A stretch of DNA of 64,000 nt from positions 64,001-128,000 of IMG/VR virus record IMGVR_UViG_3300046820_001270; one strand, given 5' to 3'. Both the position numbers and the translations under genes were made by a program. The notes beneath the pieces are model-generated. The model was given only the letters and a program-made list of their open reading frames with translations, had not been told where the DNA came from and ran no database searches. This document shows positions 7,772 through 58,347 of the stretch, in pieces. Each line of letters starts with the position of its first letter. The first letter of the stretch is position 1. The stretch is from a virus. Lineage: Duplodnaviria; Caudoviricetes.

Positions 7772-9670
7772 ATGAAAATATTTGACGCAAACATCTCGGG
7801 ATCCCTAAACGTATCGGGCGCAGCTCGTTTCTTCGGTGATCTTACGGTAGACGGAACAATAAATGCTGCGATTAGTGGTACATCCACAAACGCACTATCC
7901 CTAAACACAACGGGTTCTGCTCGTTTCGCTACCACAGGTAGTAACCTATTCACAGCAAACCAAACAATTAGCGGATCTATAATCCCATCTGTTAATAATG
8001 CTTACGATTTGGGTGATGCGACACATTGGTGGAAGGACATCTATGTATCTACAGGATCTATCTTTATTGGTGGTATAAAAGCTATCAGTACAAACACTGA
8101 TGGTACAATCCAAATAGGTACTCAAGTTGTACAAACTTCAGCAAGTTTAGCATCAGTTGGTCTACCAGTTCCTCCAACAGGTTCTGCAGGATCAAGTCAA
8201 AGTACATTAGTAGGTAGTCAAAATATTACAGGTAGTCAATCTATCACTGGTAGTATGTCAGTAAGTGGTAGTATGGTTGTAACAGGTTCTTTATTTATTA
8301 ACGGAACCTCATATACTGCGGCTTCTTCAGGAACTTCAGGAACTTCAGGAACTTCAGGTTCTTCAGGTTCTAGTGGATCTAACGGTTCATCAGGAACTTC
8401 AGGATCTAACGGAACAAATGGTTCTTCAGGAACTAGTGGTTCTAACGGTACTGACGGTTCTTCAGGTTCTAACGGAACAAATGGTTCTTCAGGAACTAGT
8501 GGATCTAACGGAACAAATGGTTCTTCAGGAACTAGTGGATCTAACGGAACAAATGGTTCTTCAGGTACTTCAGTAACCGTTTCAGGTACAAACAATGTAC
8601 TTGGTAAATTCAGTTCAGGAACTATGGTTAACTCAACAATAACTGACGATGGTACGACAGTTACTATTGGAGGTAATTTAACGGTTAATGGTACAACCAC
8701 TTCAGTCAATTCAAATACAGTTAATATTGGTGACAATATTTTAATTCTTAATTCAGATGAAGCGGGTGTTCCATCACAAAATGGTGGTATTGAAATTGAA
8801 AGAGGAACATCTACAAACGCAAGTTTAATATGGGACGAAACAACTGATGTGTGGGAAGTTGGTTTAGCGGGTGCTGAACTTGAAATTGCAACCATTAGTG
8901 GAACACAAACACTTACTAACAAAACAATAAATGGTTCACAATTAGTTGACTTGTCGGTTGCAAATGGTAAATTGACAAACTCATCAGTAACCGTTTCAGC
9001 AGGAACGGGTATGAGTGGAGGTGGTGCGGTATCATTAGGTGGTACTGTAACATTAACAAATGCGGGTGTAACGTCAATCACAACAAATACAGGTTTAAGT
9101 TCAAACGTAAGTGCGACAGGTGCGGTTACAATCACAAATACAATAACCAATAATAACCAATTAACCAATGGTGCTGGATATCTTACAACGGCTGTAACTT
9201 CAGCGGTTGGAGGTACGGGTGTTGGTGTGAGTTCGGGAACAGGAGCGGTTACATTCTCAATCGGTCAAGCGGTTGCAACATCATCAAACGTTCAATTTAA
9301 CTCATTGGGTGTAGGAACGGCAGGTCCTGGAACAACAGGTTTAATCAGAGCAACAAATGACGTTATCGCTTACTTCTCATCAGATGAGAGATTAAAGGAA
9401 AACTTTGAAAATATCCCTAATTCTTTAGATAAGTTAAAACAAATTAACGGTTATTCATTTGATTGGATCCCTATGGAAGGTATTCACGAAAATGAAGGTC
9501 ACGATATCGGTGTTAAAGCACAAGAAATTGAAGCTGTTTTACCTGAAATTGTTACAACAAGAGAAAACGGATATAAGGCGGTTAAATATGATAAATTAGT
9601 TGCTTTATTGATTGAAACAAATAAAGAATTATTAAATCGTATTGAAGCTTTAGAAGCTAAAATAAAATAA
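7772..9670 (+). CDS. tail fibre with C-terminal peptidase S74 intramolecular chaperone
   Basis: Gly/Ser/Thr-rich body; SSDERLKEN cleavage motif, IGVKAQEIE, VKYDKL and terminal coiled coil. Confidence 0.9.
   Translation: MKIFDANISGSLNVSGAARFFGDLTVDGTINAAISGTSTNALSLNTTGSARFATTGSNLFTANQTISGSIIPSVNNAYDLGDATHWWKDIYVSTGSIFIGGIKAISTNTDGTIQIGTQVVQTSASLASVGLPVPPTGSAGSSQSTLVGSQNITGSQSITGSMSVSGSMVVTGSLFINGTSYTAASSGTSGTSGTSGSSGSSGSNGSSGTSGSNGTNGSSGTSGSNGTDGSSGSNGTNGSSGTSGSNGTNGSSGTSGSNGTNGSSGTSVTVSGTNNVLGKFSSGTMVNSTITDDGTTVTIGGNLTVNGTTTSVNSNTVNIGDNILILNSDEAGVPSQNGGIEIERGTSTNASLIWDETTDVWEVGLAGAELEIATISGTQTLTNKTINGSQLVDLSVANGKLTNSSVTVSAGTGMSGGGAVSLGGTVTLTNAGVTSITTNTGLSSNVSATGAVTITNTITNNNQLTNGAGYLTTAVTSAVGGTGVGVSSGTGAVTFSIGQAVATSSNVQFNSLGVGTAGPGTTGLIRATNDVIAYFSSDERLKENFENIPNSLDKLKQINGYSFDWIPMEGIHENEGHDIGVKAQEIEAVLPEIVTTRENGYKAVKYDKLVALLIETNKELLNRIEALEAKIK
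8324..8566 (+). repeat. coding tandem repeat: 27 X-Y-Gly triplets (9-bp units, 36-bp higher-order unit)
   Basis: SSG/TSG/SNG/TNG triplets; two exact adjacent 36-bp copies ggaacaaatggttcttcaggaactagtggatctaac near 8474-8545. Confidence 0.95.
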
Positions 9671-40440: not shown

Positions 40441-40686
40441 ATGAAGGTTATTTTAACAGAAAGTCAATATACTCGTTTAATTGAAACCCAAAGTGAGGGT
40501 GAATGGGATAGTCAAAAGTTATATGAAAGGGAAAAAGTGGTTAAATTACTTAAAAAAGGACCTAAATACATAAGGGAATATATTAAAAAATTACCTCATA
40601 TTGAGGTACAAAATGACGAGGGAGACGTTAAAATAGCTACTCGTATACCTCAAACCATCCATCAATATTTATTTGGGAATTTCTAA
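40441..40686 (+). CDS. small probable virion-internal protein
   Basis: MKVILTESQYTRLIE N-terminus. Confidence 0.75.
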   Translation: MKVILTESQYTRLIETQSEGEWDSQKLYEREKVVKLLKKGPKYIREYIKKLPHIEVQNDEGDVKIATRIPQTIHQYLFGNF

Positions 40687-43250: not shown

Positions 43251-44640
43251 AATTTTATTTACATTAACTTTATTTGTATTTGTTAGTTGTTCTAAAACGG
43301 CACCAATAATTAAAGAGGTCGTTAATAATCCAATTGATAATAAACCAATTACCACATCACAATTTCAAGGTTATAAAGTACAACCATTTAATAAAAAAGA
43401 TGAAGTTAAATATTGGAGAGATTGTGGTGTGATGTGGGATATAATTGCCGATAAATTTTTGGTTAAAATAGATGGAAAAATTGGTTCATATTTTTTACCA
43501 CAAATAACAGTTGGAGATTTTAATAATGATGGTTGGATCGATATTTTTAATCCAGGTACTGGTTTATTTAAAAATGAAGTTGTAGATAATGTTGGTTGGT
43601 TAATTTGGAATACAACAACTAAAACATTTGATAACAAAAATCTGTTTAATGATAAGACATTAAAATCATTTGGTGGTAATCAAAGAAGAAGTGTTACTTT
43701 AGATTTAAATAAAGATGGATATAGTGATGTTGTCATATTCGATAGTGGAGACGATGTTCCATTGCCAGGAACCATTCCCGAATTACAACCAATAAGAATT
43801 GTTTTGTCAGATGGGAATGGAGGATATTCATTAAATAATATTCAAACTACAAGTACAATACTTTATAATCATTCTGGTGATATTGGAGATTTAAATAATG
43901 ACGGTTATCCCGATTTAGTTTCAGCAACGGGAGGATCACTTTTCATTTCATGGGGAATACCCAATTACCCATATTTTTCAACAAACGTAACGTTATTTGA
44001 TTTATGGAAAAAAACTGATAATGGATTTGGTGAATGGTTTAGAGAAGCCTCAGGTCAAGTTTATAATGTTACAATTGGAGATGTCGATAAGGATGGAAAC
44101 GAAGATATGATTTTGGGTTGTAATGAAATGAAATATCCATCAGCTTATAATTTAAGTGGGTTTGATTTTACAACTAAAATTATACTAAATCAAGGTAGAG
44201 GAGAATTTAGTAAAAGAAGTTTAATTAATTTACCCTATTATACAAAAGACGTTCAAAATTTCTTAGCAAACGATTTTAGAATTGTGGATATTAATAACGA
44301 CGGTCTGAATGATATAATATCAACGGGTAGTGTGAATTATGATGATTGGTCAATTTATACTTATATGCAAACCTCCAAAAATTCATTCTCAATCGATACA
44401 AGTAAATTTATTTATACGATAAACACCAATCGTAAATCAAATTCAATAGGATTATCTTGGAAACCTTGGTTAATATATTATGATTTTAATGGAGACGGTA
44501 AGAAAGATATATCATATATAGATGCTCACGATTTTTGGAATAACTCACTTAAAAGAAAAACTATATTCATTAGGAAAGGAAATAACTTTGAAGAAGAGGA
44601 TTTTTACAAATATGACAATTACATAAACAAACTTAAATAA
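43243..44640 (+). CDS. lipoprotein with FG-GAP/VCBS beta-propeller repeats
   Basis: LFVFVSC-SK; six DxNxDGxxD-type loops. Confidence 0.85.
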   Translation: MNKILFTLTLFVFVSCSKTAPIIKEVVNNPIDNKPITTSQFQGYKVQPFNKKDEVKYWRDCGVMWDIIADKFLVKIDGKIGSYFLPQITVGDFNNDGWIDIFNPGTGLFKNEVVDNVGWLIWNTTTKTFDNKNLFNDKTLKSFGGNQRRSVTLDLNKDGYSDVVIFDSGDDVPLPGTIPELQPIRIVLSDGNGGYSLNNIQTTSTILYNHSGDIGDLNNDGYPDLVSATGGSLFISWGIPNYPYFSTNVTLFDLWKKTDNGFGEWFREASGQVYNVTIGDVDKDGNEDMILGCNEMKYPSAYNLSGFDFTTKIILNQGRGEFSKRSLINLPYYTKDVQNFLANDFRIVDINNDGLNDIISTGSVNYDDWSIYTYMQTSKNSFSIDTSKFIYTINTNRKSNSIGLSWKPWLIYYDFNGDGKKDISYIDAHDFWNNSLKRKTIFIRKGNNFEEEDFYKYDNYINKLK

Positions 44641-44987
44641 TGGATTATAGTAAAATATTTTTAGGTGTTATATTTGGACTAATGGGTCAAGTTGGGACAT
44701 TTATACAATTACAGGGATCATATAAGTACGGTTGGTATGAAAAATACACATGGATGGTCATATTGGCAAGTGTCCCACTTGGTTGGTTATATATTAAATC
44801 CGTAAATTATTTCATTGCAGGGTTCGGTGGTCAGATATGGCCAAGTCGTCTACTTGGATTTTCAGTGGGGATTATAGTTTTTACACTAATGAGCCATTAT
44901 CTATTTAAAGAACCGTTAGATCTTAAAAACGGAATTTGTCTATTATTAGGGTTTAGTATATTAATGATCCAGTTATTTGTTAAATAG
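44640..44987 (+). CDS. small multi-pass membrane protein (DMT/SMR-like)
   Basis: Four hydrophobic helices, FKEPL before last helix. Confidence 0.65.
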   Translation: MDYSKIFLGVIFGLMGQVGTFIQLQGSYKYGWYEKYTWMVILASVPLGWLYIKSVNYFIAGFGGQIWPSRLLGFSVGIIVFTLMSHYLFKEPLDLKNGICLLLGFSILMIQLFVK

Positions 44988-45032
44988 CCGTAAAAATATC
45001 TAAAATTTATGATACATATCGTAGAATTAGAA

Positions 45033-45039
45033 TATTTAT
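45033..45039 (+). promoter_or_regulatory. putative late-promoter motif TATTTAT
   Basis: Upstream of ATG 45044. Confidence 0.5.
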
Positions 45040-45043
45040 GTTT

Positions 45044-47977
45044 ATGGCAATTACAAACAAAATCAAATACGTAAGCGGTAACACCATTCATAATGGTTCA
45101 ATTACCAATAATAACGTCGCCTTAGGTGTAGATATGGATCTAGATTATGGCGAAACAATCAATACAGGATATTGGGCGGGAGTTAATCCATCCAATAATG
45201 GTTATACCATTTATTATCTTGACGGTACCAATCAACCAAGAATTATGTCGGCAGATGACGACAATGCTCTTATCTTCTTCGCCAACGAATTTGGTGCTTC
45301 AAATGTAACAACCGTAACGGACGCATTACTATACTTCAAAGATAATGCGGGTTATTTCATAACCAACCGTAAAGTTGAATCAATCACAACCTCAGGGATG
45401 ACTTTAATGTACGACCCAGGTTTGGTTCAATCATATCCTAAGTCAGGAACTACAATGAGTAACTTGGGTAGTGTAGGTTTAGGTAATAATGGTCCAGCAA
45501 TGTACTTGTCAGGAACAACTTACAATTCTGAAAAGGGCGGTTCTTTACTTTACTCTAATACGGGTAACACCTTTTCTGAGGCCGCAACAACTGAATTTTT
45601 AACTGATTTCACATATAATATTTGGTTTAAGGCAACAGCATTTGAAACAAATAACATTTTGATGTCACGTGGATATGGTTTATGTAAATTGTCTTTAGGT
45701 AAAAGTCTTGATAACCCAACACTTAGTAGAGTAGAATTTTATGATAACAACACATCGTTAGATATGTATTCGGTAAGTGGTTATACAATTGGACTTGACA
45801 CTTGGACTAACGTTACTGTTAAACATATTGAAGGAACCTCAACACAAGTTTTTGTAAATGGAGCGCTAGTTCTCTCGGACACAACAACAACTAATTTATA
45901 TAACGAAAATATTAGTGATCTTTTTATCGGTGGTGAACGTGGTAGTAATGGTAATGGATTTACTGGTTACATAGGACACGTTGCTTATTATGATAGGGCA
46001 TTAAGTGTTTCTGAGATTGGGAAGAACTACAACGCTTTACGTGATAGATACTACGGTGCATCGGGCGGTGAATCATTCTTTATAATGGCACAAATGCCGG
46101 GTAGTAATAACTTCGGTTATGTTATATTAGAAGCAACAACAGGAACGGCATCTGAAGTAATAGATACAGGTTTAGACCGTGATATATATTATCAAGATGA
46201 AATACTTCAAGTAAATCACGGAGGTTATTCATTATTATTTGGAAATGATGATACCGGTGATAAAAAGGTATTATTCATTGACGCTTTTGGTACTCTTGTT
46301 GATACGTTTGATTTCCCTAATACCAACTGGAATTCTAGTCGTGCTAGTGGTTTTGTAAATATATTTACCGATAATGCGGGTGGTGTAATGAAGTTTTTTG
46401 ACGGAACATCAGTTGGAACATATACTTGGGACCCAAGTTCTGAAGAGGCCAATTTTAACAATAACTGGGATCCGACATCGATAGATAAAACGTTTGCAAT
46501 TTACACAAGAAACACCAATACGAATGTGGTAACTTGGAAACTTGCAAATGCTCAGACAGGTGTTGTAAACTTGAGATCGTACAATGATGCTGATTTTACT
46601 ACTGAACCGATAATTTACACTAGTGGGAATTATGTGATTCTACCATTCCAAGATGATAATACTTTACTACACAGTAGTTTGGAGGTTTATGGTACTGATG
46701 GAACATTAAAACATACACAAAGTTTAACCGGATTAACGTTAAATAGTTGGAATGCTCGAACTTTTGGAACCGGAAAATTCTCAATACTTTATACGAATAA
46801 TAGTGACGAAGATGTCGATTATCATTTATATGCATACATCGAATCCACAAATTCATTTATATCGACAACTCACGCAAGAGGAGCTAATTATCGTAATAAT
46901 GATGTATATTCAGAATCTATAGATTACGTAAGTGAAAACACTAATTGCGAAAGTGTTCATTATGTGTTCCGTTCTGATAGTACCCATAATAATAATGATT
47001 TAAATTATTACGATTACATCGATTACGTTTCCTTATTTGAGGGAGAAAGTAATTTTATAACTAGTGTTTTCGCCAATAATACATCTAAGGGAATAGCCAG
47101 AGAAGGTGATACCACCAAATATTATAATGATCTTGTTAATACTGGTGACAATAAATTAAAATCTATGTTGATTACTCCGTCAGGATTTACATACACAGAA
47201 ATAGTTACGGATGTTACAACGGTTACCTATATTAGTCAAGATTTATTAAATAATGATATACTATATTTATTATATCTTAATGATGTAAACAACGAATATC
47301 ACTATTACGTAATAAATGGTACAACAGGTGCAATAAGAGACACATTAACACATACAACCGTAAATGATTGGAATGATTGGTATAATACAGAATTTGATAC
47401 ATTATACATTAAAAACGTCGACACGGCAGAAGCTTGGTATATGTGTAGAAGTCAATATGAATTTGCACAAACAACAAATTATGAAAGTGACACAAATGCT
47501 AGTGATTTTTACAATGAAGATGGTTGGACTGAAGAACCTGTTTTAGTAATGTATAATGGAGACACCGATGGTAAGTGTAGAGTATTGACACCTGATGGGA
47601 TTTCAGATGAGTTTACATTACCATTGTCTACACAATGGGGATATGATTTAGTACTTGGTAAATCCTTTTTCACTTGGAGATATCATAATGCTGATGGTTT
47701 TCCATCAATGAGAATATACGATTTTAGTGGAAATATACTTAATGATTATGTTAGTCCTTTCTCGGTAGATGTAAATGGGAATTTCCACCAATATGGAACA
47801 ATTGGTAATTTGGCTTATGTTGTTGCGGGTGAAGGATGTCCTGATAATCAATGTGGAACATTGGTACCGACAATCCTTAATACAGACGGAACAACGTCAT
47901 CTCGAACAATATTCTATAATAACATTGGTAGCTACTACACATCGGCAACTGACTACTTCTGGTGGGATAACTGCTAA
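45044..47977 (+). CDS. large LamG/concanavalin-A-like domain protein, probable virion appendage
   Basis: FTYNIWFK...WTNVTV...QVFVNG...FIG...FTGYIGHVAYYDRALSVSEI.KNYN; beta-rich C-terminal part. Confidence 0.8.
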   Translation: MAITNKIKYVSGNTIHNGSITNNNVALGVDMDLDYGETINTGYWAGVNPSNNGYTIYYLDGTNQPRIMSADDDNALIFFANEFGASNVTTVTDALLYFKDNAGYFITNRKVESITTSGMTLMYDPGLVQSYPKSGTTMSNLGSVGLGNNGPAMYLSGTTYNSEKGGSLLYSNTGNTFSEAATTEFLTDFTYNIWFKATAFETNNILMSRGYGLCKLSLGKSLDNPTLSRVEFYDNNTSLDMYSVSGYTIGLDTWTNVTVKHIEGTSTQVFVNGALVLSDTTTTNLYNENISDLFIGGERGSNGNGFTGYIGHVAYYDRALSVSEIGKNYNALRDRYYGASGGESFFIMAQMPGSNNFGYVILEATTGTASEVIDTGLDRDIYYQDEILQVNHGGYSLLFGNDDTGDKKVLFIDAFGTLVDTFDFPNTNWNSSRASGFVNIFTDNAGGVMKFFDGTSVGTYTWDPSSEEANFNNNWDPTSIDKTFAIYTRNTNTNVVTWKLANAQTGVVNLRSYNDADFTTEPIIYTSGNYVILPFQDDNTLLHSSLEVYGTDGTLKHTQSLTGLTLNSWNARTFGTGKFSILYTNNSDEDVDYHLYAYIESTNSFISTTHARGANYRNNDVYSESIDYVSENTNCESVHYVFRSDSTHNNNDLNYYDYIDYVSLFEGESNFITSVFANNTSKGIAREGDTTKYYNDLVNTGDNKLKSMLITPSGFTYTEIVTDVTTVTYISQDLLNNDILYLLYLNDVNNEYHYYVINGTTGAIRDTLTHTTVNDWNDWYNTEFDTLYIKNVDTAEAWYMCRSQYEFAQTTNYESDTNASDFYNEDGWTEEPVLVMYNGDTDGKCRVLTPDGISDEFTLPLSTQWGYDLVLGKSFFTWRYHNADGFPSMRIYDFSGNILNDYVSPFSVDVNGNFHQYGTIGNLAYVVAGEGCPDNQCGTLVPTILNTDGTTSSRTIFYNNIGSYYTSATDYFWWDNC

Positions 47978-53343: not shown

Positions 53344-53466
53344 ATGAGTTCAAAATTTTTTACTAACCCACAACAATCTAAGATAGATAAAGGGGCAAAG
53401 AAACCAGCAACAACTAAACCAGTCAAAACCAATACCCAAATTAAGAAGACGGGAAGAGGTAAATAG
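53344..53466 (+). CDS. 40-aa basic peptide (not in ORF track)
   Basis: MSSKFFTNPQQ...IKKTGRGK. Confidence 0.65.
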   Translation: MSSKFFTNPQQSKIDKGAKKPATTKPVKTNTQIKKTGRGK

Positions 53467-53468
53467 GA

Positions 53469-53475
53469 TATTTAT
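53469..53475 (+). promoter_or_regulatory. putative late-promoter motif TATTTAT
   Basis: 5 nt before ATG 53481. Confidence 0.5.
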
Positions 53476-53480
53476 ATCTA

Positions 53481-54296
53481 ATGAGTGGATTAACAACAAT
53501 TAAATTAAGTAGTGAAGACCTTAAGAAAGAACAAGAACGCCAACGAAAAAGAGGTAGATTGATCTTTAATACCTTTAAAAAAGGTAAGGTTAAGGTTGTA
53601 ATTGGTCGATATGATGAAGACGGAACAGTTCCTGACATTATATTTCAATATCAAATACATGACGCACACTTTAGATCAATTGTAGATTACACTAACGGAG
53701 AAGTAATCTGTGTAATGGATTGTTATTATGATGATATAGATATTCTTAATGAAGACGGTAGTGAAATAACAGAAAAATTACCTCTTTGGTTAGTTTCGGA
53801 AATTGAGAACAAAATTGAAGATAAGTTTGGTGGTTTTAACATCGAACTCCGTTATATGCAACAATCAGACGGGAAAGGAAAGAAAAGTTTGGTTAATGAA
53901 GATGTAAGTGAACATCAGAAAATGATCAACAAGGTTAGGGTAATATATAAAGCACACAGAAACGGACATTATGATTTTAAGTACGGTCCTCAAAAAGACG
54001 AAATAAAACACGTAAGTTGGGTACTCCCACCTAAATTTAGTATTAAAATAAAAGAATATAGTCAAGAAGACAGTGAAAGATTTGGTTATGAAAATTACCC
54101 TATTTTGACGTTGAACACAGAAACTATTAATTTTATTACAGAAGACGGTAAACCTATTCAGAGTGGAGAGAAAATGGTCATTGGTTCAAAAATAACGAGT
54201 ATCTTTAAGAAACATAGAATAACCGTATATTGGACAGGAAATAAGAATACAACGGACGATTACACACAGATAGATATTACCCCAAAATCAAAATAA
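53481..54296 (+). CDS. repeat-domain family protein A (2 domain copies)
   Basis: RGRLIFNTFKKG and KVRVIYKAHRNG, linker LVNE. Confidence 0.8.
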   Translation: MSGLTTIKLSSEDLKKEQERQRKRGRLIFNTFKKGKVKVVIGRYDEDGTVPDIIFQYQIHDAHFRSIVDYTNGEVICVMDCYYDDIDILNEDGSEITEKLPLWLVSEIENKIEDKFGGFNIELRYMQQSDGKGKKSLVNEDVSEHQKMINKVRVIYKAHRNGHYDFKYGPQKDEIKHVSWVLPPKFSIKIKEYSQEDSERFGYENYPILTLNTETINFITEDGKPIQSGEKMVIGSKITSIFKKHRITVYWTGNKNTTDDYTQIDITPKSK

Positions 54297-54297
54297 A

Positions 54298-54329
54298 TTT
54301 GGATATTCCAAATGGGGGTTGTATATTTG
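54298..54329 (+). promoter_or_regulatory. Bacteroidota-type promoter
   Basis: TTTG 54298-54301, 20-nt spacer, TATATTTG 54322-54329. Confidence 0.75.
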
Positions 54330-54333
54330 TTTC

Positions 54334-54510
54334 ATGAAAGTAAAAATAACAGTAAAATACCATATTGAAATTGGTAATGAAGTCATTGAGTGTGAATCAC
54401 TTGAACAGGCTGAACGTAAATTAAAACACATCTCAGAGGTTGAGAGATATCTTATCAAAACCGAATTAAAGGGAGATCAAATCGTTGCTCAGTATTTAAT
54501 AGGTCAATAA
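54334..54510 (+). CDS. hypothetical protein
   Basis: Start ATG 54334 just after promoter. Confidence 0.65.
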   Translation: MKVKITVKYHIEIGNEVIECESLEQAERKLKHISEVERYLIKTELKGDQIVAQYLIGQ

Positions 54511-54512
54511 GG

Positions 54513-54519
54513 TATTTAT
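54513..54519 (+). promoter_or_regulatory. putative late-promoter motif TATTTAT
   Basis: Upstream of HNH gene. Confidence 0.4.
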
Positions 54520-54524
54520 TATGA

Positions 54525-54848
54525 ATGAACAGAAAAGAGTATAGGAGACTATTACAGGACCCCAAATGGAAGATCAAGGCTTCCTTCATCAGGAAGAGAG
54601 ATAACCACTCCTGCGTCAGATGTGGGAAGAAATCACATAGATTACAGGTTCATCACACCAAATATGAAGATGGTTTAATGCCGTGGGAGTATGATAATGA
54701 TACGTTAGAGTCGTTATGTTCGGGTTGTCATAAGAAAGAACATAACATTAAACCTAAAAGGAGATTTACCCCGAGAAAGAAGAAAGAACCCAAATTACAA
54801 ACAAGGGTGATTAAGATTAAACCAATTGACGATAACTCTTGGAGTTAG
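54525..54848 (+). CDS. HNH endonuclease
   Basis: RDNHSCVRCG...LQVHH...LESLCSGCHKKEH. Confidence 0.88.
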   Translation: MNRKEYRRLLQDPKWKIKASFIRKRDNHSCVRCGKKSHRLQVHHTKYEDGLMPWEYDNDTLESLCSGCHKKEHNIKPKRRFTPRKKKEPKLQTRVIKIKPIDDNSWS

Positions 54849-54849
54849 A

Positions 54850-54856
54850 TATTTAT
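54850..54856 (+). promoter_or_regulatory. putative late-promoter motif TATTTAT
   Basis: 5 nt before ATG 54862. Confidence 0.5.
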
Positions 54857-54861
54857 ATACA

Positions 54862-55587
54862 ATGAAGTTCATAGATTTAATAAAAGAAGACGAATATACA
54901 AGACAATACAAGAAAGCTCATACTATCTATAAAGCACTTAGAAAGGGTAAAGCAACTGTTTCGGTAAATGTAGCTTATACCGAAAGAAATGGAATTGAAT
55001 TACACACATTTGAATACATGTTACCAAAAGAGAATTATATAATAAATGTTACTAATTTGTATGGAAGTACCACGACACATATTCGTTGTGAAAAAATGGT
55101 AATAATCGGTAAAAAAATACCAATTATGGACACATTGATTATTGGTGCGGTTAGTAAAAGATTTTCAAAGGATTTTGGAATTGATTTAATTATTAATGAT
55201 GTTGAATATACTGAGGAAGGTGTTAGAAATGATGGTTTATTAAAAGAAGAACCAAACGAACGTGAATTGGAAATAGAAAAAGTTAAAACCAAAACAAAGA
55301 CTGTTTATAAGGCACTTAAAAAAGGAACTTTAAATGTTCGTTATGCACATGGACAACCGGATGTGAAATTTAAATATGAATTACCTGACGAATATAGAAT
55401 AAAAGTATTAGGGAGTACGACAGAAGGATTTAAATCATACATCAAATTAACATGTAATCATGTTAAAATTGAAACATTAGATGGTATTGAACGTGACGAC
55501 AACCAAAAATTTGGGATAGGTTTTCCGGCAATTAAACACAAATTCGGTTCTTTTGATATTGAAATGGATTGTCTTTTTGGTAGTTAA
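54862..55587 (+). CDS. repeat-domain family protein B (2 domain copies)
   Basis: Start ATG 54862 MKFIDLIKE; KAHTIYKALRKG, KTKTVYKALKKG, linker LLKE. Confidence 0.8.
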   Translation: MKFIDLIKEDEYTRQYKKAHTIYKALRKGKATVSVNVAYTERNGIELHTFEYMLPKENYIINVTNLYGSTTTHIRCEKMVIIGKKIPIMDTLIIGAVSKRFSKDFGIDLIINDVEYTEEGVRNDGLLKEEPNERELEIEKVKTKTKTVYKALKKGTLNVRYAHGQPDVKFKYELPDEYRIKVLGSTTEGFKSYIKLTCNHVKIETLDGIERDDNQKFGIGFPAIKHKFGSFDIEMDCLFGS

Positions 55588-55687
55588 CAATTCTTGTTTG
55601 GTTTTACCCAAATAAACTTTATGATGTCCAAAAAATTATTTAAATTAATAGTACTTATTTAAGATTAGACAAATACAATTATACATT

Positions 55688-55924
55688 ATGGATATTAATG
55701 AATTATATGAAAGATATATGACGGCGTATAAAATAGAAATCAGGGAATGTGAAACACCATATAGTGTTGATCTATTAAGAGATATAGATATGTTAGAAAA
55801 TTTAACTATCGATGAGTTTAAAGACAAATTAAAAAACCCAACGTTTAATAATAAATGGGGTGATGAGCCAAACAATTCAAGTAACTTTATGTACAACTGG
55901 ATTAGGGATAAGAGCGGTAAATAG
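55688..55924 (+). CDS. hypothetical protein
   Basis: 78-aa ORF. Confidence 0.6.
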   Translation: MDINELYERYMTAYKIEIRECETPYSVDLLRDIDMLENLTIDEFKDKLKNPTFNNKWGDEPNNSSNFMYNWIRDKSGK

Positions 55925-55927
55925 TTT

Positions 55928-57160
55928 TTATAATTTAACCCAAGTTCCGTTATGTTTTAAACGAAATTTTGTTGCTCTAAGAATAATGTTCAACCCAAAG
56001 TTGTTAAATTTTTTCTTAACAATATTAAGAATGTCCATTTTAATTGTTTGAATATTATTTAAATTTGGGTTTTCGTCACAGTTAATTTTAATTGATGGTA
56101 TTAAAACTTTGACATTGTAATTATTTTCAAATGGATCTGTCTCAACAATATATACATCACCTAAATCATAATCAAATGTGTATTTTTGTGGGTCAGTTGC
56201 ACCTCGATAAAATAATCTTATTGCATCAACCTCCATTGTTACCTTACCTTTCTTTAAAGCTTTAAAAACAGTTGGTGCTTTTTTAACAAGTGTTTCATGT
56301 TCGTTCTCATTCTCTTCTTTTACAATATGAGTTTCAGTATTTTTAAATGCATCTTTGTATTTGGTGAATATCATATCACAATTAGAATCAAAATTAATAA
56401 ATCTCATTTTAATTTTATGGCGAAACGATTCTAACAATTCAATTTGAACTGCACCATTTTTTGCTTTGAAATCGTATTCAATCTTTACATCTTCAATCGG
56501 AATAAAAAATGATACGGGTCGATTAAAAATGTTATTAAAATCTAATCTTATTCTAAATTTTTTTGGTAATTCGTAATCAGCAACAACCACAACCTGTTCT
56601 CCGTTATTAAATATTGGAGGTACTTTAACTTTAACTTTTCCTTTTCTAAAACTTTTGTAAACTAATTTGGACTTATTAATTATTCTTTGTTTTTCTTGTT
56701 CATCATCAACACTTTCATCAATCATATTTTCATATGCACTTGGAACGTTATGTTTTTTTCTAATACTAAATCTAATTTGTTCACCTTCGTCGAATGTACC
56801 CTTTAATGAATTATTAAATTTACGAGCAAGTTTTCTTAATATATCTTCTCTAATATCAATATCATCAGCAAGAGAAGGATATCTTTCACAGTTTATAGTT
56901 ATACCTGTTATTATCACTTCATAAGCTAACATTTGATTTCCTGACGTTAGATGATATGTGGTAGGTAGTTCATATGTGATAACAACATCTTTATCATCAA
57001 TTATTTCAAATCCAGTCCAAAATGGAACCATATCGGGGAGTAGATTACCAATCTTAAAACCACCTGTTCTTAGTGTCTTATACATAAGTTTAACCTTACG
57101 AGACACCTTACGGTAATCGTCACTTAACTCAGCTTCCCCCAAAATATCCACAAATTTCAT
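55928..57160 (-). CDS. repeat-domain family protein C (3 domain copies)
   Basis: MKFVDILGE; KVKLMYKTLRTG, KSKLVYKSFRKG, KAPTVFKALKKG; linkers MIDE, IVKE. Confidence 0.85.
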   Translation of the reverse strand: MKFVDILGEAELSDDYRKVSRKVKLMYKTLRTGGFKIGNLLPDMVPFWTGFEIIDDKDVVITYELPTTYHLTSGNQMLAYEVIITGITINCERYPSLADDIDIREDILRKLARKFNNSLKGTFDEGEQIRFSIRKKHNVPSAYENMIDESVDDEQEKQRIINKSKLVYKSFRKGKVKVKVPPIFNNGEQVVVVADYELPKKFRIRLDFNNIFNRPVSFFIPIEDVKIEYDFKAKNGAVQIELLESFRHKIKMRFINFDSNCDMIFTKYKDAFKNTETHIVKEENENEHETLVKKAPTVFKALKKGKVTMEVDAIRLFYRGATDPQKYTFDYDLGDVYIVETDPFENNYNVKVLIPSIKINCDENPNLNNIQTIKMDILNIVKKKFNNFGLNIILRATKFRLKHNGTWVKL

Positions 57161-57166
57161 ATCTTT

Positions 57167-57173
57167 ATAAATA
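57167..57173 (-). promoter_or_regulatory. putative late-promoter motif TATTTAT
   Basis: 6 nt before ATG 57160 on minus strand. Confidence 0.5.
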
Positions 57174-57185
57174 TACCTGAAATTG

Positions 57186-57217
57186 TTTGGATATTATACT
57201 AAAAACTCTTATATTTG
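57186..57217 (+). promoter_or_regulatory. Bacteroidota-type promoter
   Basis: TTTG 57186-57189, 20-nt spacer, TATATTTG 57210-57217. Confidence 0.75.
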
Positions 57218-57235
57218 GGTATAAAACTATATATT

Positions 57236-57544
57236 ATGGCAATTGCAAAGAAAGCGGCTAAGAAAGCTGTACCAAAAGTGGTGGAACAACCAAAACAAAT
57301 CGTTTTAACCCAAGATCAGTATGATCAATTGGTTGGTTTTAAATGGGAGGTTAATTCAATTTCACATGAAATTAAAAGTGTTGTGGTTGATGATGATAAG
57401 AATGTTAGAGAGATTTCTTTTGATCTTGGAACTTTACAAGTTAGACTTAATAAACTATATGATGATCTAACTAAAATATCTGATGATGTTGATCCAGACC
57501 CATACGTTTGGGAAGATGATGACAACGATGATGATAACAATTAA
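57236..57544 (+). CDS. hypothetical protein (basic N-terminus, acidic C-terminus)
   Basis: Start ATG 57236 MAIAKKAAKK. Confidence 0.75.
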   Translation: MAIAKKAAKKAVPKVVEQPKQIVLTQDQYDQLVGFKWEVNSISHEIKSVVVDDDKNVREISFDLGTLQVRLNKLYDDLTKISDDVDPDPYVWEDDDNDDDNN

Positions 57545-57547
57545 GTT

Positions 57548-57874
57548 ATGCGTGATTTCAAATTTCTTGCCAAAAACGATATATCAAGTTATAACGGACA
57601 AATGTCTCGTGAGGCTATTGACTATCTATATGATTATAACAATCGTGTAAGGAGTCATGAGAGGACCACAACGATTGCGACATATAAAATGGTGGATTAT
57701 ACCTATGGTGATGGTGATATTGTTGCAGGAACCGTCAATGCATATCCATTAAATGCTTCGAATATAAGAATCACTTTTAGAATAAGAAACGGAGAGATTA
57801 CATCACACACCATAGATATTGACTATTGGAATACGATGGGACAATTAGTAAATGCATTAAGGAGGGAAGATTAG
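57548..57874 (+). CDS. FKFL-tagged hypothetical protein
   Basis: MRDFKFLAK. Confidence 0.75.
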   Translation: MRDFKFLAKNDISSYNGQMSREAIDYLYDYNNRVRSHERTTTIATYKMVDYTYGDGDIVAGTVNAYPLNASNIRITFRIRNGEITSHTIDIDYWNTMGQLVNALRRED

Positions 57875-58347
57875 AGATTAGTTGGTCTTCCCGCACCTCT
57901 ATATGCCGAAATATACTTTGGTTCATTTAAACTACTAACCTTTACACCTTCGTATCTATTTGATGCGTGAACAAATAAAGACTCACCAATATAAGTTCCA
58001 CAGTGCCATCTACTTGGTGATTGTCTACTCCTAAAAAATAATAGATCACCAACCTGTAAACTATCCTTCTTAATTCGCGGAGTTGTTTCCCACTGCAACG
58101 AACAAGTATTCTCAATATTAATTTTAAAAACATCCTGAGCCAATCTTTTATTGAACTGAGAACAATCAATACCTTTCTCCGTTGATCCCCCTAACCTATA
58201 TGGTTTACGTAACCAATTGATTACAAATGTATTGAGAGTACTATCAACGGCAAAACGAGGGATTGAATCTAAATAAACCTTTTTAGTTTGTGATGTTCCT
58301 AATATTGAGATGAACATCAATAATGTAATAATTAAAAATTTCTTCAT
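57871..58347 (-). CDS. secreted NlpC/P60 (C40) cell-wall peptidase
   Basis: Signal peptide; PYRLGG...GIDCS; GDLLFF; HCG.YIG...FVHAS. Confidence 0.92.
   Translation of the reverse strand: MKKFLIITLLMFISILGTSQTKKVYLDSIPRFAVDSTLNTFVINWLRKPYRLGGSTEKGIDCSQFNKRLAQDVFKINIENTCSLQWETTPRIKKDSLQVGDLLFFRSRQSPSRWHCGTYIGESLFVHASNRYEGVKVSSLNEPKYISAYRGAGRPTNL

What the first reader, a model, noticed from the sequence alone, without database searches (positions are those of the whole stretch)
53481..57160. Unknown ~120-aa domain repeated seven times over three late genes, joined by x-x-E linkers
Seen: domain starts are RGRLIFNTFKKG and KVRVIYKAHRNG (53481), KAHTIYKALRKG and KTKTVYKALKKG (54862), and KVKLMYKTLRTG, KSKLVYKSFRKG and KAPTVFKALKKG (57160-). 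Most have an F/Y-x-Y-x-L-P strand and end in KF..F.I. Copies are separated by acidic linkers LVNE, LLKE, MIDE and IVKE. Each gene has its own TATTTAT, one is inverted, and the copies are highly diverged. Inference: polyproteins cut by the prohead protease into single basic domains, giving a diversified arsenal of injected proteins by analogy with T4 IPI anti-restriction proteins.
Basis: partly seen in the sequence, partly recalled or inferred. Interest (0 to 1): 0.7.

Follow-up and report, generated by a model that had tools for sequence, protein, structure and literature searches.

The report
Head-cargo polyproteins of a giant phage
Three late genes of an uncultured 334-kb lake phage string together two or three copies of an undescribed 120-residue domain. 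Each copy follows the cutting motif of the T4-type head protease, and two of the three genes start with a T4-like head-loading tag. The proteins are therefore probably loaded into the capsid and cut into single domains, though no cut has been measured.

Summary
Genes A (53481-54296 +), B (54862-55587 +) and C (55928-57160 -) contain 2+2+3 diverged copies of one ~125-aa domain, with pairwise z up to 14 against shuffles. It matches no Pfam, PHROG or PDB family. A confident model (pLDDT 90.5) has no clear structural relative.

The family is metagenome-only. It comprises 109 clusters at 50% identity, with 1-6 copies per protein, and reaches at least 18 copies in 7 genes of a close relative.

New here:
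- 63 of 109 representatives start with a 9-residue leader, MK[FL][IL]D[IL][IL]xE.
- 75 of 102 internal junctions carry [ILVM]-N-E, about 16 times the expected density.
- Orthologous domains occur either behind the leader or behind an internal junction, colinear from the residue after Glu.
- A complete relative encodes a gp21-type protease. Its gp23-type capsid protein has its only such motif at residue 60.
- Head genes in that relative share the TATTTATA upstream motif with the family genes.

Best reading: T4-style head-targeted cargo, cut into 13-16 kDa domains. Cleavage, packaging and any anti-defence role are untested. Gene A lacks the leader, and two of the seven products are acidic. This scan has reported similar capsid-addressed polyproteins on other DNA.

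The parts
53468..53476 (+). ATATTTATA upstream motif of gene A, ending 4 nt before the ATG
   Evidence: the same TATTTATA precedes head genes in relative G001
53481..54296 (+). Gene A, 271 aa, two domain copies; no MKF-type leader
   Evidence: the A lineage lacks the leader in its orthologues too
53892..53900 (+). Junction V-N-E (A residues 138-140) between copies A1 and A2
   Evidence: kept as LVNE in orthologues P0134 and P0181
54849..54857 (+). ATATTTATA upstream motif of gene B
54862..55587 (+). Gene B, 241 aa, two domain copies
54862..54888 (+). 9-residue leader of B (MKFIDLIKE), a candidate capsid-targeting propeptide ending in I-x-E
   Evidence: compared with the T4 leaders read
55240..55248 (+). 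Junction L-K-E (B residues 127-129) between B1 and B2; L-N-E in orthologue P0137
55928..57160 (-). Gene C, 410 aa, three domain copies
57134..57160 (-). 9-residue leader of C (MKFVDILGE), ending in L-x-E
56714..56722 (-). Junction I-D-E (C residues 147-149) between C1 and C2; Glu invariant and [ILV]-[DN]-E in 78 of 78 orthologues
56315..56323 (-). Junction V-K-E (C residues 280-282) between C2 and C3; [VL]-K-E with invariant Glu in 78 of 78 orthologues
56315..56722 (-). Copy C2, the unit that was modelled: long N-terminal helix, five strands, a second long helix, two more strands
   Evidence: pLDDT 90.5, pTM 0.84
57166..57174 (-). ATATTTATA upstream motif of gene C, on the minus strand

Best explanation
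A, B and C belong to an expanded, fast-diversifying family of late proteins of T4-related giant freshwater phages. I read them as head cargo. The proposed sequence of events is as follows. The genes are transcribed from the same TATTTATA-type promoters as the head genes. A 9-residue N-terminal leader (MK-hydrophobic-hydrophobic-D-hydrophobic-hydrophobic-x-E) takes the protein into the prohead core, as the T4 capsid targeting sequence does. The gp21-type prohead protease then cuts after the Glu of each [ILV]-x-E (usually [IL]-N-E). That removes the leader and separates the copies into single folded alpha/beta domains of 112-140 residues (13-16 kDa). The domains stay in the head with the DNA and probably enter the cell with it.

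Shown here: the repeat, the family, the leader, the junction motif and its statistics, fusion and fission at the motif, the protease and capsid-protein genes in a relative, and the shared upstream motif. Inferred: targeting, cleavage, packaging and ejection. What the released domains do is open. The many diverged paralogues and the gene turnover at the locus fit a diversified set of host-directed binders or inhibitors. A DNA-associated packing role is the main alternative.
For: (1) The repeat is real.
(2) The family has 109 clusters at 50% identity, with 1-6 copies per protein. There are 13 copies in 8 genes of the complete 335.6-kb relative G001, and at least 18 copies in 7 genes on the 10.8-kb contig L041.
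(3) 63 of 109 representatives start with the full leader. Leader codons differ at synonymous sites, so selection acts on the peptide.
(4) In G001 the same leader also heads proteins outside the family: 41170, 44070 and 46935. This mirrors the T4 targeting sequence, which is shared by unrelated internal proteins (PMC3012670, PMC9026906).
(5) 75 of 102 internal junctions have [ILVM]-N-E and 99 of 102 have [ILVM]-x-E. Density is 2.13 per 100 aa in linkers, 0.37 elsewhere and 0.13 expected. INE is the commonest tripeptide in linker windows. Its distance to the domain's Gly anchor ranges over 19-37 residues. Only 1 of 109 proteins has the motif in its last 15 residues.
(6) One orthologous domain is found behind a leader in L041 and, at 59-69% identity, behind internal P-I-N-E or P-L-N-E in P0183 and P0155. 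The sequences are colinear from the residue after Glu.
(7) G001 encodes Peptidase_S77 at 72.5 bits, 29% identical to T4 gp21 with the His and Ser motifs aligned. It also encodes a Gp23-type capsid protein. That protein's only [ILVM]-N-E is at residue 60 (L-I-N-E then A-A), and the same holds in 120 of 120 homologues. T4 gp23 loses 65 residues after L-T-E.
(8) gp21 cuts after L/I-x-E, and the T4 targeting sequence is the first 10 residues of IPIII (PMC9026906). T4 leaders were read directly from the T4 record.
(9) TATTTATA precedes the G001 terminase-like, portal-like, protease and scaffold genes as well as the family genes. In the window it also precedes the tail-fibre gene at 7772.
Against: Gene A and its orthologues lack the leader yet keep the V-N-E junction. 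So either A is targeted some other way or the motif has another role. In many members, including all four window junctions, the motif sits right at the start of the first helix (helix starts at residue 4, just after I-D-E). Hydrophobic-N/D-E is also a common helix N-cap pattern, so part of the conservation could be structural. One leader-bearing G001 protein is an HNH or DUF723-type endonuclease, an odd head cargo. Genome-wide in G001, N-terminal [ILVM]-N-E is not enriched: 14 found against about 11 expected. The protease, capsid protein and head-gene promoters were read in a relative whose C orthologue is 56% identical, not in the window's own genome, which is not held. Two predicted products are acidic, unlike T4 internal proteins.
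Confidence: 0.55

Rival explanations
1. These are uncleaved tandem-domain late proteins, for example multivalent binders or a structural or decoration component. On this reading the hydrophobic-N-E motif is the N-terminal cap of each repeat unit's first helix. The MKF-type leader is then just the start of the ancestral unit, or an initiation-friendly N-terminus spread by recombination in a plastic region.
For: The motif lies immediately before helix 1 in the modelled copy. The commonest single spacings to the Gly anchor are 19 and 28. Gene A keeps the junction without a leader. A homing-endonuclease-like protein carries the leader. All leader-bearing genes sit in gene-flux regions with the promoter motif only 4-6 nt upstream, so a promoter-plus-start cassette could move as a block.
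Against: The spacing ranges from 19 to 37 residues. In many members 5-12 irregular or Gly-rich residues separate the motif from the helix. Everything around the tripeptide varies while the tripeptide stays. Leader codons vary synonymously. The capsid protein of the lineage has its single such motif at the expected maturation position. Fusion and fission occur exactly at Glu.
Confidence: 0.22
2. The proteins are targeted and cleaved as proposed, but they are not injected effectors. They would instead be internal head components that organise or neutralise the packed 334-kb DNA (an inner-body or internal-protein mass), or prohead-core parts whose fragments are expelled.
For: The most conserved element is a Lys-rich amphipathic helix (K.K..YKALKKG), and 5 of 7 products have pI 8.5-9.5. 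Giant phages such as phiKZ and SPN3US have paralogous, protease-processed inner head proteins (PMC9026906, PMC5694885).
Against: The copies differ by about 80% in sequence, two are acidic, and gene content at the locus turns over between close relatives. In L041, B is replaced by an unrelated gene. That pattern is more typical of conflict genes than of a packing scaffold. G001 has a separate acidic scaffold gene next to the protease. The domain is a compact fold, unlike expelled core peptides.
Confidence: 0.18

Closest known systems
Phage T4 internal proteins IPI, IPII and IPIII (also Alt and gp24): capsid targeting sequence plus gp21 processing
   Same: A short N-terminal leader starting MK and ending hydrophobic-x-Glu (T4 MKTYQEFIAE; here MKFIDLIKE and MKFVDILGE). 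The leader is shared by unrelated proteins. The lineage has a gp21-type protease and a gp23-type capsid protein. The genes appear to be late, and they form a variable, fast-evolving set (PMC3012670, PMC9026906).
   Different: The mature domain shows no sequence relation to IPI, IPII or IPIII. The leader is 9 residues, not 10, with Asn favoured at P2. T4 internal proteins are single units. Here up to six homologous units are chained, with a cut motif before each, and one genome holds at least 18 units. Gene A lacks the leader. The likely hosts are Bacteroidota, not enterobacteria.
Processed inner-body and ejection protein paralogues of giant phages phiKZ, 201phi2-1 and SPN3US
   Same: Giant phage with paralogous head-protein families, cutting after Glu by a diverged gp21 homologue, and identical N-termini on diverged paralogues (SPN3US gp53 and gp54; PMC5694885).
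   Different: Those proteases prefer S/A/G-x-E and the propeptides are often over 100 residues. Here the motif is I/L/V-x-E with a 9-residue leader, as in T4. No sequence or fold match was found to BFVD viral models. This phage has the T4-type capsid protein, not the phiKZ type.
Polyvalent proteins of phages and conjugative elements (Iyer et al. 2017, PMC5512222)
   Same: Multi-module proteins predicted to travel with the DNA and to be released by proteolysis.
   Different: Polyvalent proteins combine different enzymatic and binding domains and often carry their own peptidase. Here the modules are copies of one non-enzymatic-looking domain, and the cut would be made by the head protease.
Capsid-addressed, protease-punctuated polyproteins noted earlier in this scan on other T4-like phage genomes
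   Same: A T4-like leader plus hydrophobic-x-Glu at module borders, in T4-type phages (AI notes, unverified by experiment).
   Different: Those chains mostly join unrelated enzymes. This one is a homologous-repeat family of unknown fold, spread over many genes.

Membership tests
T4-type capsid-targeted internal proteins (targeting sequence + gp21 processing) | N-terminal propeptide of about 10 residues ending in L/I-x-E | tested here: met
   B and C start with 9-residue leaders ending I-K-E and L-G-E. 63 of 109 family representatives carry the full leader. Gene A does not.
T4-type capsid-targeted internal proteins (targeting sequence + gp21 processing) | The phage encodes a gp21-type (Peptidase_S77) prohead protease | tested here: met
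   Met in the complete relative G001: 72.5 bits against a 27-bit cut-off, and 29% identity to T4 gp21. The window's own genome is not held, so for it this is an inference.
T4-type capsid-targeted internal proteins (targeting sequence + gp21 processing) | Expressed late, together with the head genes | tested here: inconclusive
   TATTTATA is shared upstream of the family genes and of the G001 terminase-like, portal-like, protease and scaffold genes.
T4-type capsid-targeted internal proteins (targeting sequence + gp21 processing) | Protein present in the virion in its cleaved form | not testable with these tools
   Needs virion mass spectrometry or N-terminal sequencing.
T4-type capsid-targeted internal proteins (targeting sequence + gp21 processing) | Sequence homology of the mature part to IPI, IPII or IPIII | tested here: not met
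   hhalign probability is below 1% for all three. T4 internal proteins are also unrelated to one another, so this bears on homology, not on mechanism.
phiKZ-type processed inner-body proteins | S/A/G-x-E cleavage motif and long propeptides | tested here: not met
   P3 is I, L, V or M in the 75 junctions with N at P2, and the leader is 9 residues.
DUF1934 / YwiB beta-barrel (a name one source gave to P0092) | Match to the Pfam model | tested here: not met
   No Pfam family recurs among 150 domain segments at E <= 0.01. The model is alpha/beta, not a barrel.
Ferredoxin-like cation-efflux C-terminal domains (CzcD, MamM) | Shared fold with significant structural score | tested here: inconclusive
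   Best VIA-align Z is 6.0 (rmsd 3.0 over 77 residues). That is below the 7-8 typical of models with no true match. Foldseek PDB E-values are all 0.25 or higher.

The most novel reading that the evidence does not exclude
Giant T4-related phages of freshwater Bacteroidota use a polyprotein strategy otherwise typical of RNA viruses. Arrays of diversified copies of one new fold, at least 18 per genome, would be addressed to the prohead by a portable 9-residue tag. The head protease would release them as a pre-made, combinatorially shuffled arsenal of injected host-directed binders. New specificities would arise by duplication, fusion and fission at the cut site.
Probability: 0.3. Interest if true: 0.75.

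Novelty: new variant of a known kind. Interest (0 to 1): 0.6.

Why it matters
If the reading holds, it extends the T4 capsid-targeting and processing system far outside the T-even phages. It also gives that system a new form: homologous-repeat polyproteins released by the head protease. It yields three testable predictions for uncultured giant phages: a 9-residue address tag, a protease specificity ([IL]-N-E followed by a small or acidic residue), and a catalogue of likely head cargo. It also defines a new, confidently modelled domain family with no known relative. That family is a candidate source of injected anti-defence or DNA-associated proteins.

Tried and rejected
- Pfam and PHROGs on A, B and C gave only chance-level hits. 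Pfam on 150 domain segments found nothing recurrent, so the DUF1934/YwiB name attached to P0092 is rejected.
- A PDB sequence-profile search gave only marginal glucanase hits, E 0.005.
- The INPHARED phage collection gave no match: blastn of the locus, and tblastn with C and with P0139. No cultured phage in that collection has a detectable member.
- The single-sequence AlphaFold model of C was useless, pLDDT 36.
- Fold searches of the good model in PDB (Foldseek), 48,161 PDB representatives (VIA-align), BFVD and the ESM Atlas gave nothing above noise.
- The ESM Atlas feature search with B gave no usable hit.
- hhalign against T4 IPI, IPII and IPIII found no relation.
- The sigma-70 promoter scan found no more sites than in shuffles.
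- G000 is not held, and L002 could not be searched as a genome.
- The alignment was too diverged for the search for related loci.
- Genome-wide enrichment of N-terminal [ILVM]-N-E in G001 was not found: 14 against about 11 expected.
- Complex prediction was not used, because the report claims no specific binding pair.
Full report
**The observation**

The three ORFs are A 53481-54296 (+, 271 aa), B 54862-55587 (+, 241 aa from the ATG) and C 55928-57160 (-, 410 aa). The seven quoted motif starts are all present.

Cutting the proteins at the four linkers gives seven units of 115-146 residues. Sixteen of the 21 pairs score above all 200 shuffles, with z from 4.4 to 14.1. The units align with a shared K.K..YKALKKG helix, a Y.LP strand and a KF..F element. 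A profile of the seven finds only these seven in the window's six frames. Each gene has ATATTTATA ending 4-5 nt before its ATG. The repeat is real and is not a chance pattern.

**The setting**

The window is AT-rich, about 30% G+C. It carries glycosyltransferases, a collagen-like tail fibre with an S74 chaperone domain, and a lysin.

Protein C is encoded letter for letter on a 334,429-bp JGI metagenome contig (L002). A 335,630-bp IMG/VR genome rated 100% complete (G001) carries a 56%-identical orthologue. G001 was fetched whole. Its capsid protein is closest, among cultured phages, to those of Microcystis phage Mel-JY01 and Flavobacterium phage immuto, at about 41%.

Earlier notes of this scan call the genome a giant uncultured lake phage with likely Chitinophagaceae hosts. 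I did not test that.

**The family**

A, B and C match no Pfam or PHROG family and nothing in 50,697 deposited phage genomes. In metagenomes, however, C has 132 relatives in forms with 2, 3 or 4 units, on contigs up to 339 kb.

A profile search of 1.84 billion representatives finds 109 clusters at 50% identity. Proteins with 1, 2, 3, 4, 5 and 6 units number 36, 38, 18, 14, 2 and 1.

- G001 has 13 units in 8 genes, all between 4.5 and 43 kb.
- A 10.8-kb contig of a close relative (L041) has at least 18 units in 7 genes. There, B is replaced by an unrelated 239-aa ORF.
- In the window's own genome the next family gene starts about 2.9 kb past the window end, with a canonical leader.

**The leader**

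63 begin with one 9-residue leader, MK[FL][IL]D[IL][IL]xE, most often ending I-N-E. B (MKFIDLIKE) and C (MKFVDILGE) have it. The A lineage does not.

Leader codons differ at synonymous sites between paralogues, so the peptide is what is conserved.

In G001 the same leader also heads proteins outside the family. These are a 182-aa ORF, a 405-aa phrog_20046 protein, and a 436-aa HNH/DUF723-type endonuclease. A second leader type (MK[IV].[IL]TE.Q) heads four more ORFs there, and ORF 40441 in the window.

**The junctions**

In 75 of 102 internal unit borders an [ILVM]-N-E lies 19-37 residues before the Gly anchor of the next unit. In 99 of 102 there is an [ILVM]-x-E.

- Motif density is 2.13 per 100 aa in linkers, 0.37 elsewhere and 0.13 expected from composition. 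Pro is at P4 in 27 of the 75.
- Without presupposing the motif, INE is the commonest tripeptide in linker windows (41 of 102) and LNE is joint second with KKA at 23.
- Only 1 of 109 proteins has the motif in its last 15 residues.
- In 78 orthologues of C both junction Glu residues are invariant, within [ILV]-[DN]-E and [VL]-K-E.

One orthologous domain is the first unit of a gene in L041, directly behind a leader ending I-N-E. At 59-69% identity it is the third unit of P0183 and P0155, behind P-I-N-E or P-L-N-E. The sequences are colinear from the residue after Glu and unrelated before it. Genes therefore fuse and split exactly at this point.

**The enzyme and a control substrate**

G001 encodes a Peptidase_S77 protein (72.5 bits). 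It is 29% identical to T4 gp21, with the His and Ser motifs aligned. Beside it lie an acidic scaffold-like gene and a Gp23-family capsid protein (211 bits).

The capsid protein has a single [ILVM]-N-E, at residue 60 (L-I-N-E followed by A-A). This holds in 120 of 120 close homologues, and 117 of them have no other such motif anywhere. T4 gp23 loses a 65-residue propeptide after L-T-E (PMC5694885; sequence read).

T4 gp21 cuts after L/I-x-E. The first 10 residues of IPIII are enough to load proteins into heads, with residues 8 and 10 governing processing (PMC9026906). The T4 leaders read from the T4 record (IPII and IPIII MKTYQEFIAE; gp24 ending L-R-E) resemble the present leader in length, in the initial MK and in the ending.

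TATTTATA precedes the G001 terminase-like, portal-like, protease and scaffold genes as well as the family and leader-bearing genes. In the window it precedes the tail-fibre gene.

**Structure**

With an alignment of 150 diverged units, copy C2 folds confidently: pLDDT 90.5, pTM 0.84. It has a 22-residue helix, five strands, a second 22-residue helix and two more strands. The three residues of the upstream junction are disordered.

No library gives a convincing relative. Foldseek PDB E-values are 0.25 or higher. The best VIA-align Z is 6.0 (CzcD and MamM C-terminal domains), which is below the usual noise level. BFVD E-values are 0.04 or higher. The best Atlas TM-score is 0.52. The function of the domain cannot be read from its fold.

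**Reading**

The simplest account of these facts together is T4-style head cargo. The facts are a portable leader, a cut motif before every unit, fission and fusion at that motif, a matching capsid-protein site, a gp21-type enzyme and a head-gene promoter motif. On this account the leader addresses the protein to the prohead, and the protease removes the leader and separates the units. That gives predicted products of 12.9-16.2 kDa.

I put this at about 0.55, because every functional step is inferred and several points do not fit:
- Gene A keeps a junction but has no leader.
- Two products are acidic.
- An endonuclease carries the leader.
- The motif often abuts helix 1, where hydrophobic-N/D-E could serve as a helix cap.
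- N-terminal occurrences are not enriched genome-wide.
- The protease evidence comes from a relative.

A DNA-associated internal-protein role fits the Lys-rich conserved helix equally well.

**Novelty**

The mechanism class is known: T4 internal proteins, and processed head proteins of giant phages. This scan has already reported leader-plus-junction polyproteins in other T4-like phages.

What is new here is a homologous-repeat form in an undescribed domain family. It is expanded to about 18 units per genome, and it comes with direct comparative evidence that the Glu junction is the unit boundary.

Noticed in passing
window 53344-53466 (+): A 40-aa, very Lys-rich ORF lies directly upstream of gene A, behind its own ATATTTAT. 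It is called as a gene on two independent contigs (L002, L003). It may be a small basic late peptide.
   Followed up: no
window 54525-54848 (+): A 107-aa HNH endonuclease (Pfam HNH, E 1.8e-5) sits between A and B. The same position holds an HNH gene in relatives L002, L003 and L041, while the neighbouring B gene is replaced by an unrelated 239-aa ORF in L041.
   Followed up: partly
window 40441-40686 (+): An 81-aa ORF behind GATATTTATA starts with a second leader type (MK-V-I-L-T-E-S-Q). The same type heads four larger ORFs of G001 (42979, 45693, 48689, 78819) and some family members (P0171, P0204, P0224). It contains a K..KLLKKG stretch and scores weakly with the domain profile (E 0.38).
   Followed up: partly
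G001 (L024) 44070-45380 (+): A 436-aa HNH/DUF723-type endonuclease (phrog_559, 228 bits) carries the same 9-residue leader and the TATTTATA motif as the domain family. It is either a packaged nuclease or a sign that the leader can spread as a cassette.
   Followed up: partly
window 52212, 52679, 52996, 57548 and 59814 onward: Many small ORFs around the locus begin with an x-F-K-F-[FL] N-terminal tag. About 9 kb of such ORFs separates C from the next family gene in this genome, but is absent in relative L041.
   Followed up: no
window 57871-58347 (-): An NlpC/P60 peptidase (E 2.9e-20) with a signal-peptide-like N-terminus is encoded on the opposite strand, next to the cluster. It is conserved there in L002, L003, L004 and L041.
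   Followed up: no
G001 116321-117715 (+) and 121425-122162 (+): Two ORFs of the head module carry the motif at telling places: L-N-E at residue 18 of a 464-aa protein, and I-N-E at 97 plus a site 6 residues from the C-terminus of a 245-aa protein. The scaffold-like protein has three sites. These are further candidate protease substrates.
   Followed up: no
window 57215-57544 (+): A 109-aa ORF divergent from gene C has an Ala/Lys-rich N-terminus and a run of Asp/Asn at its C-terminus. It has no family match.
   Followed up: no
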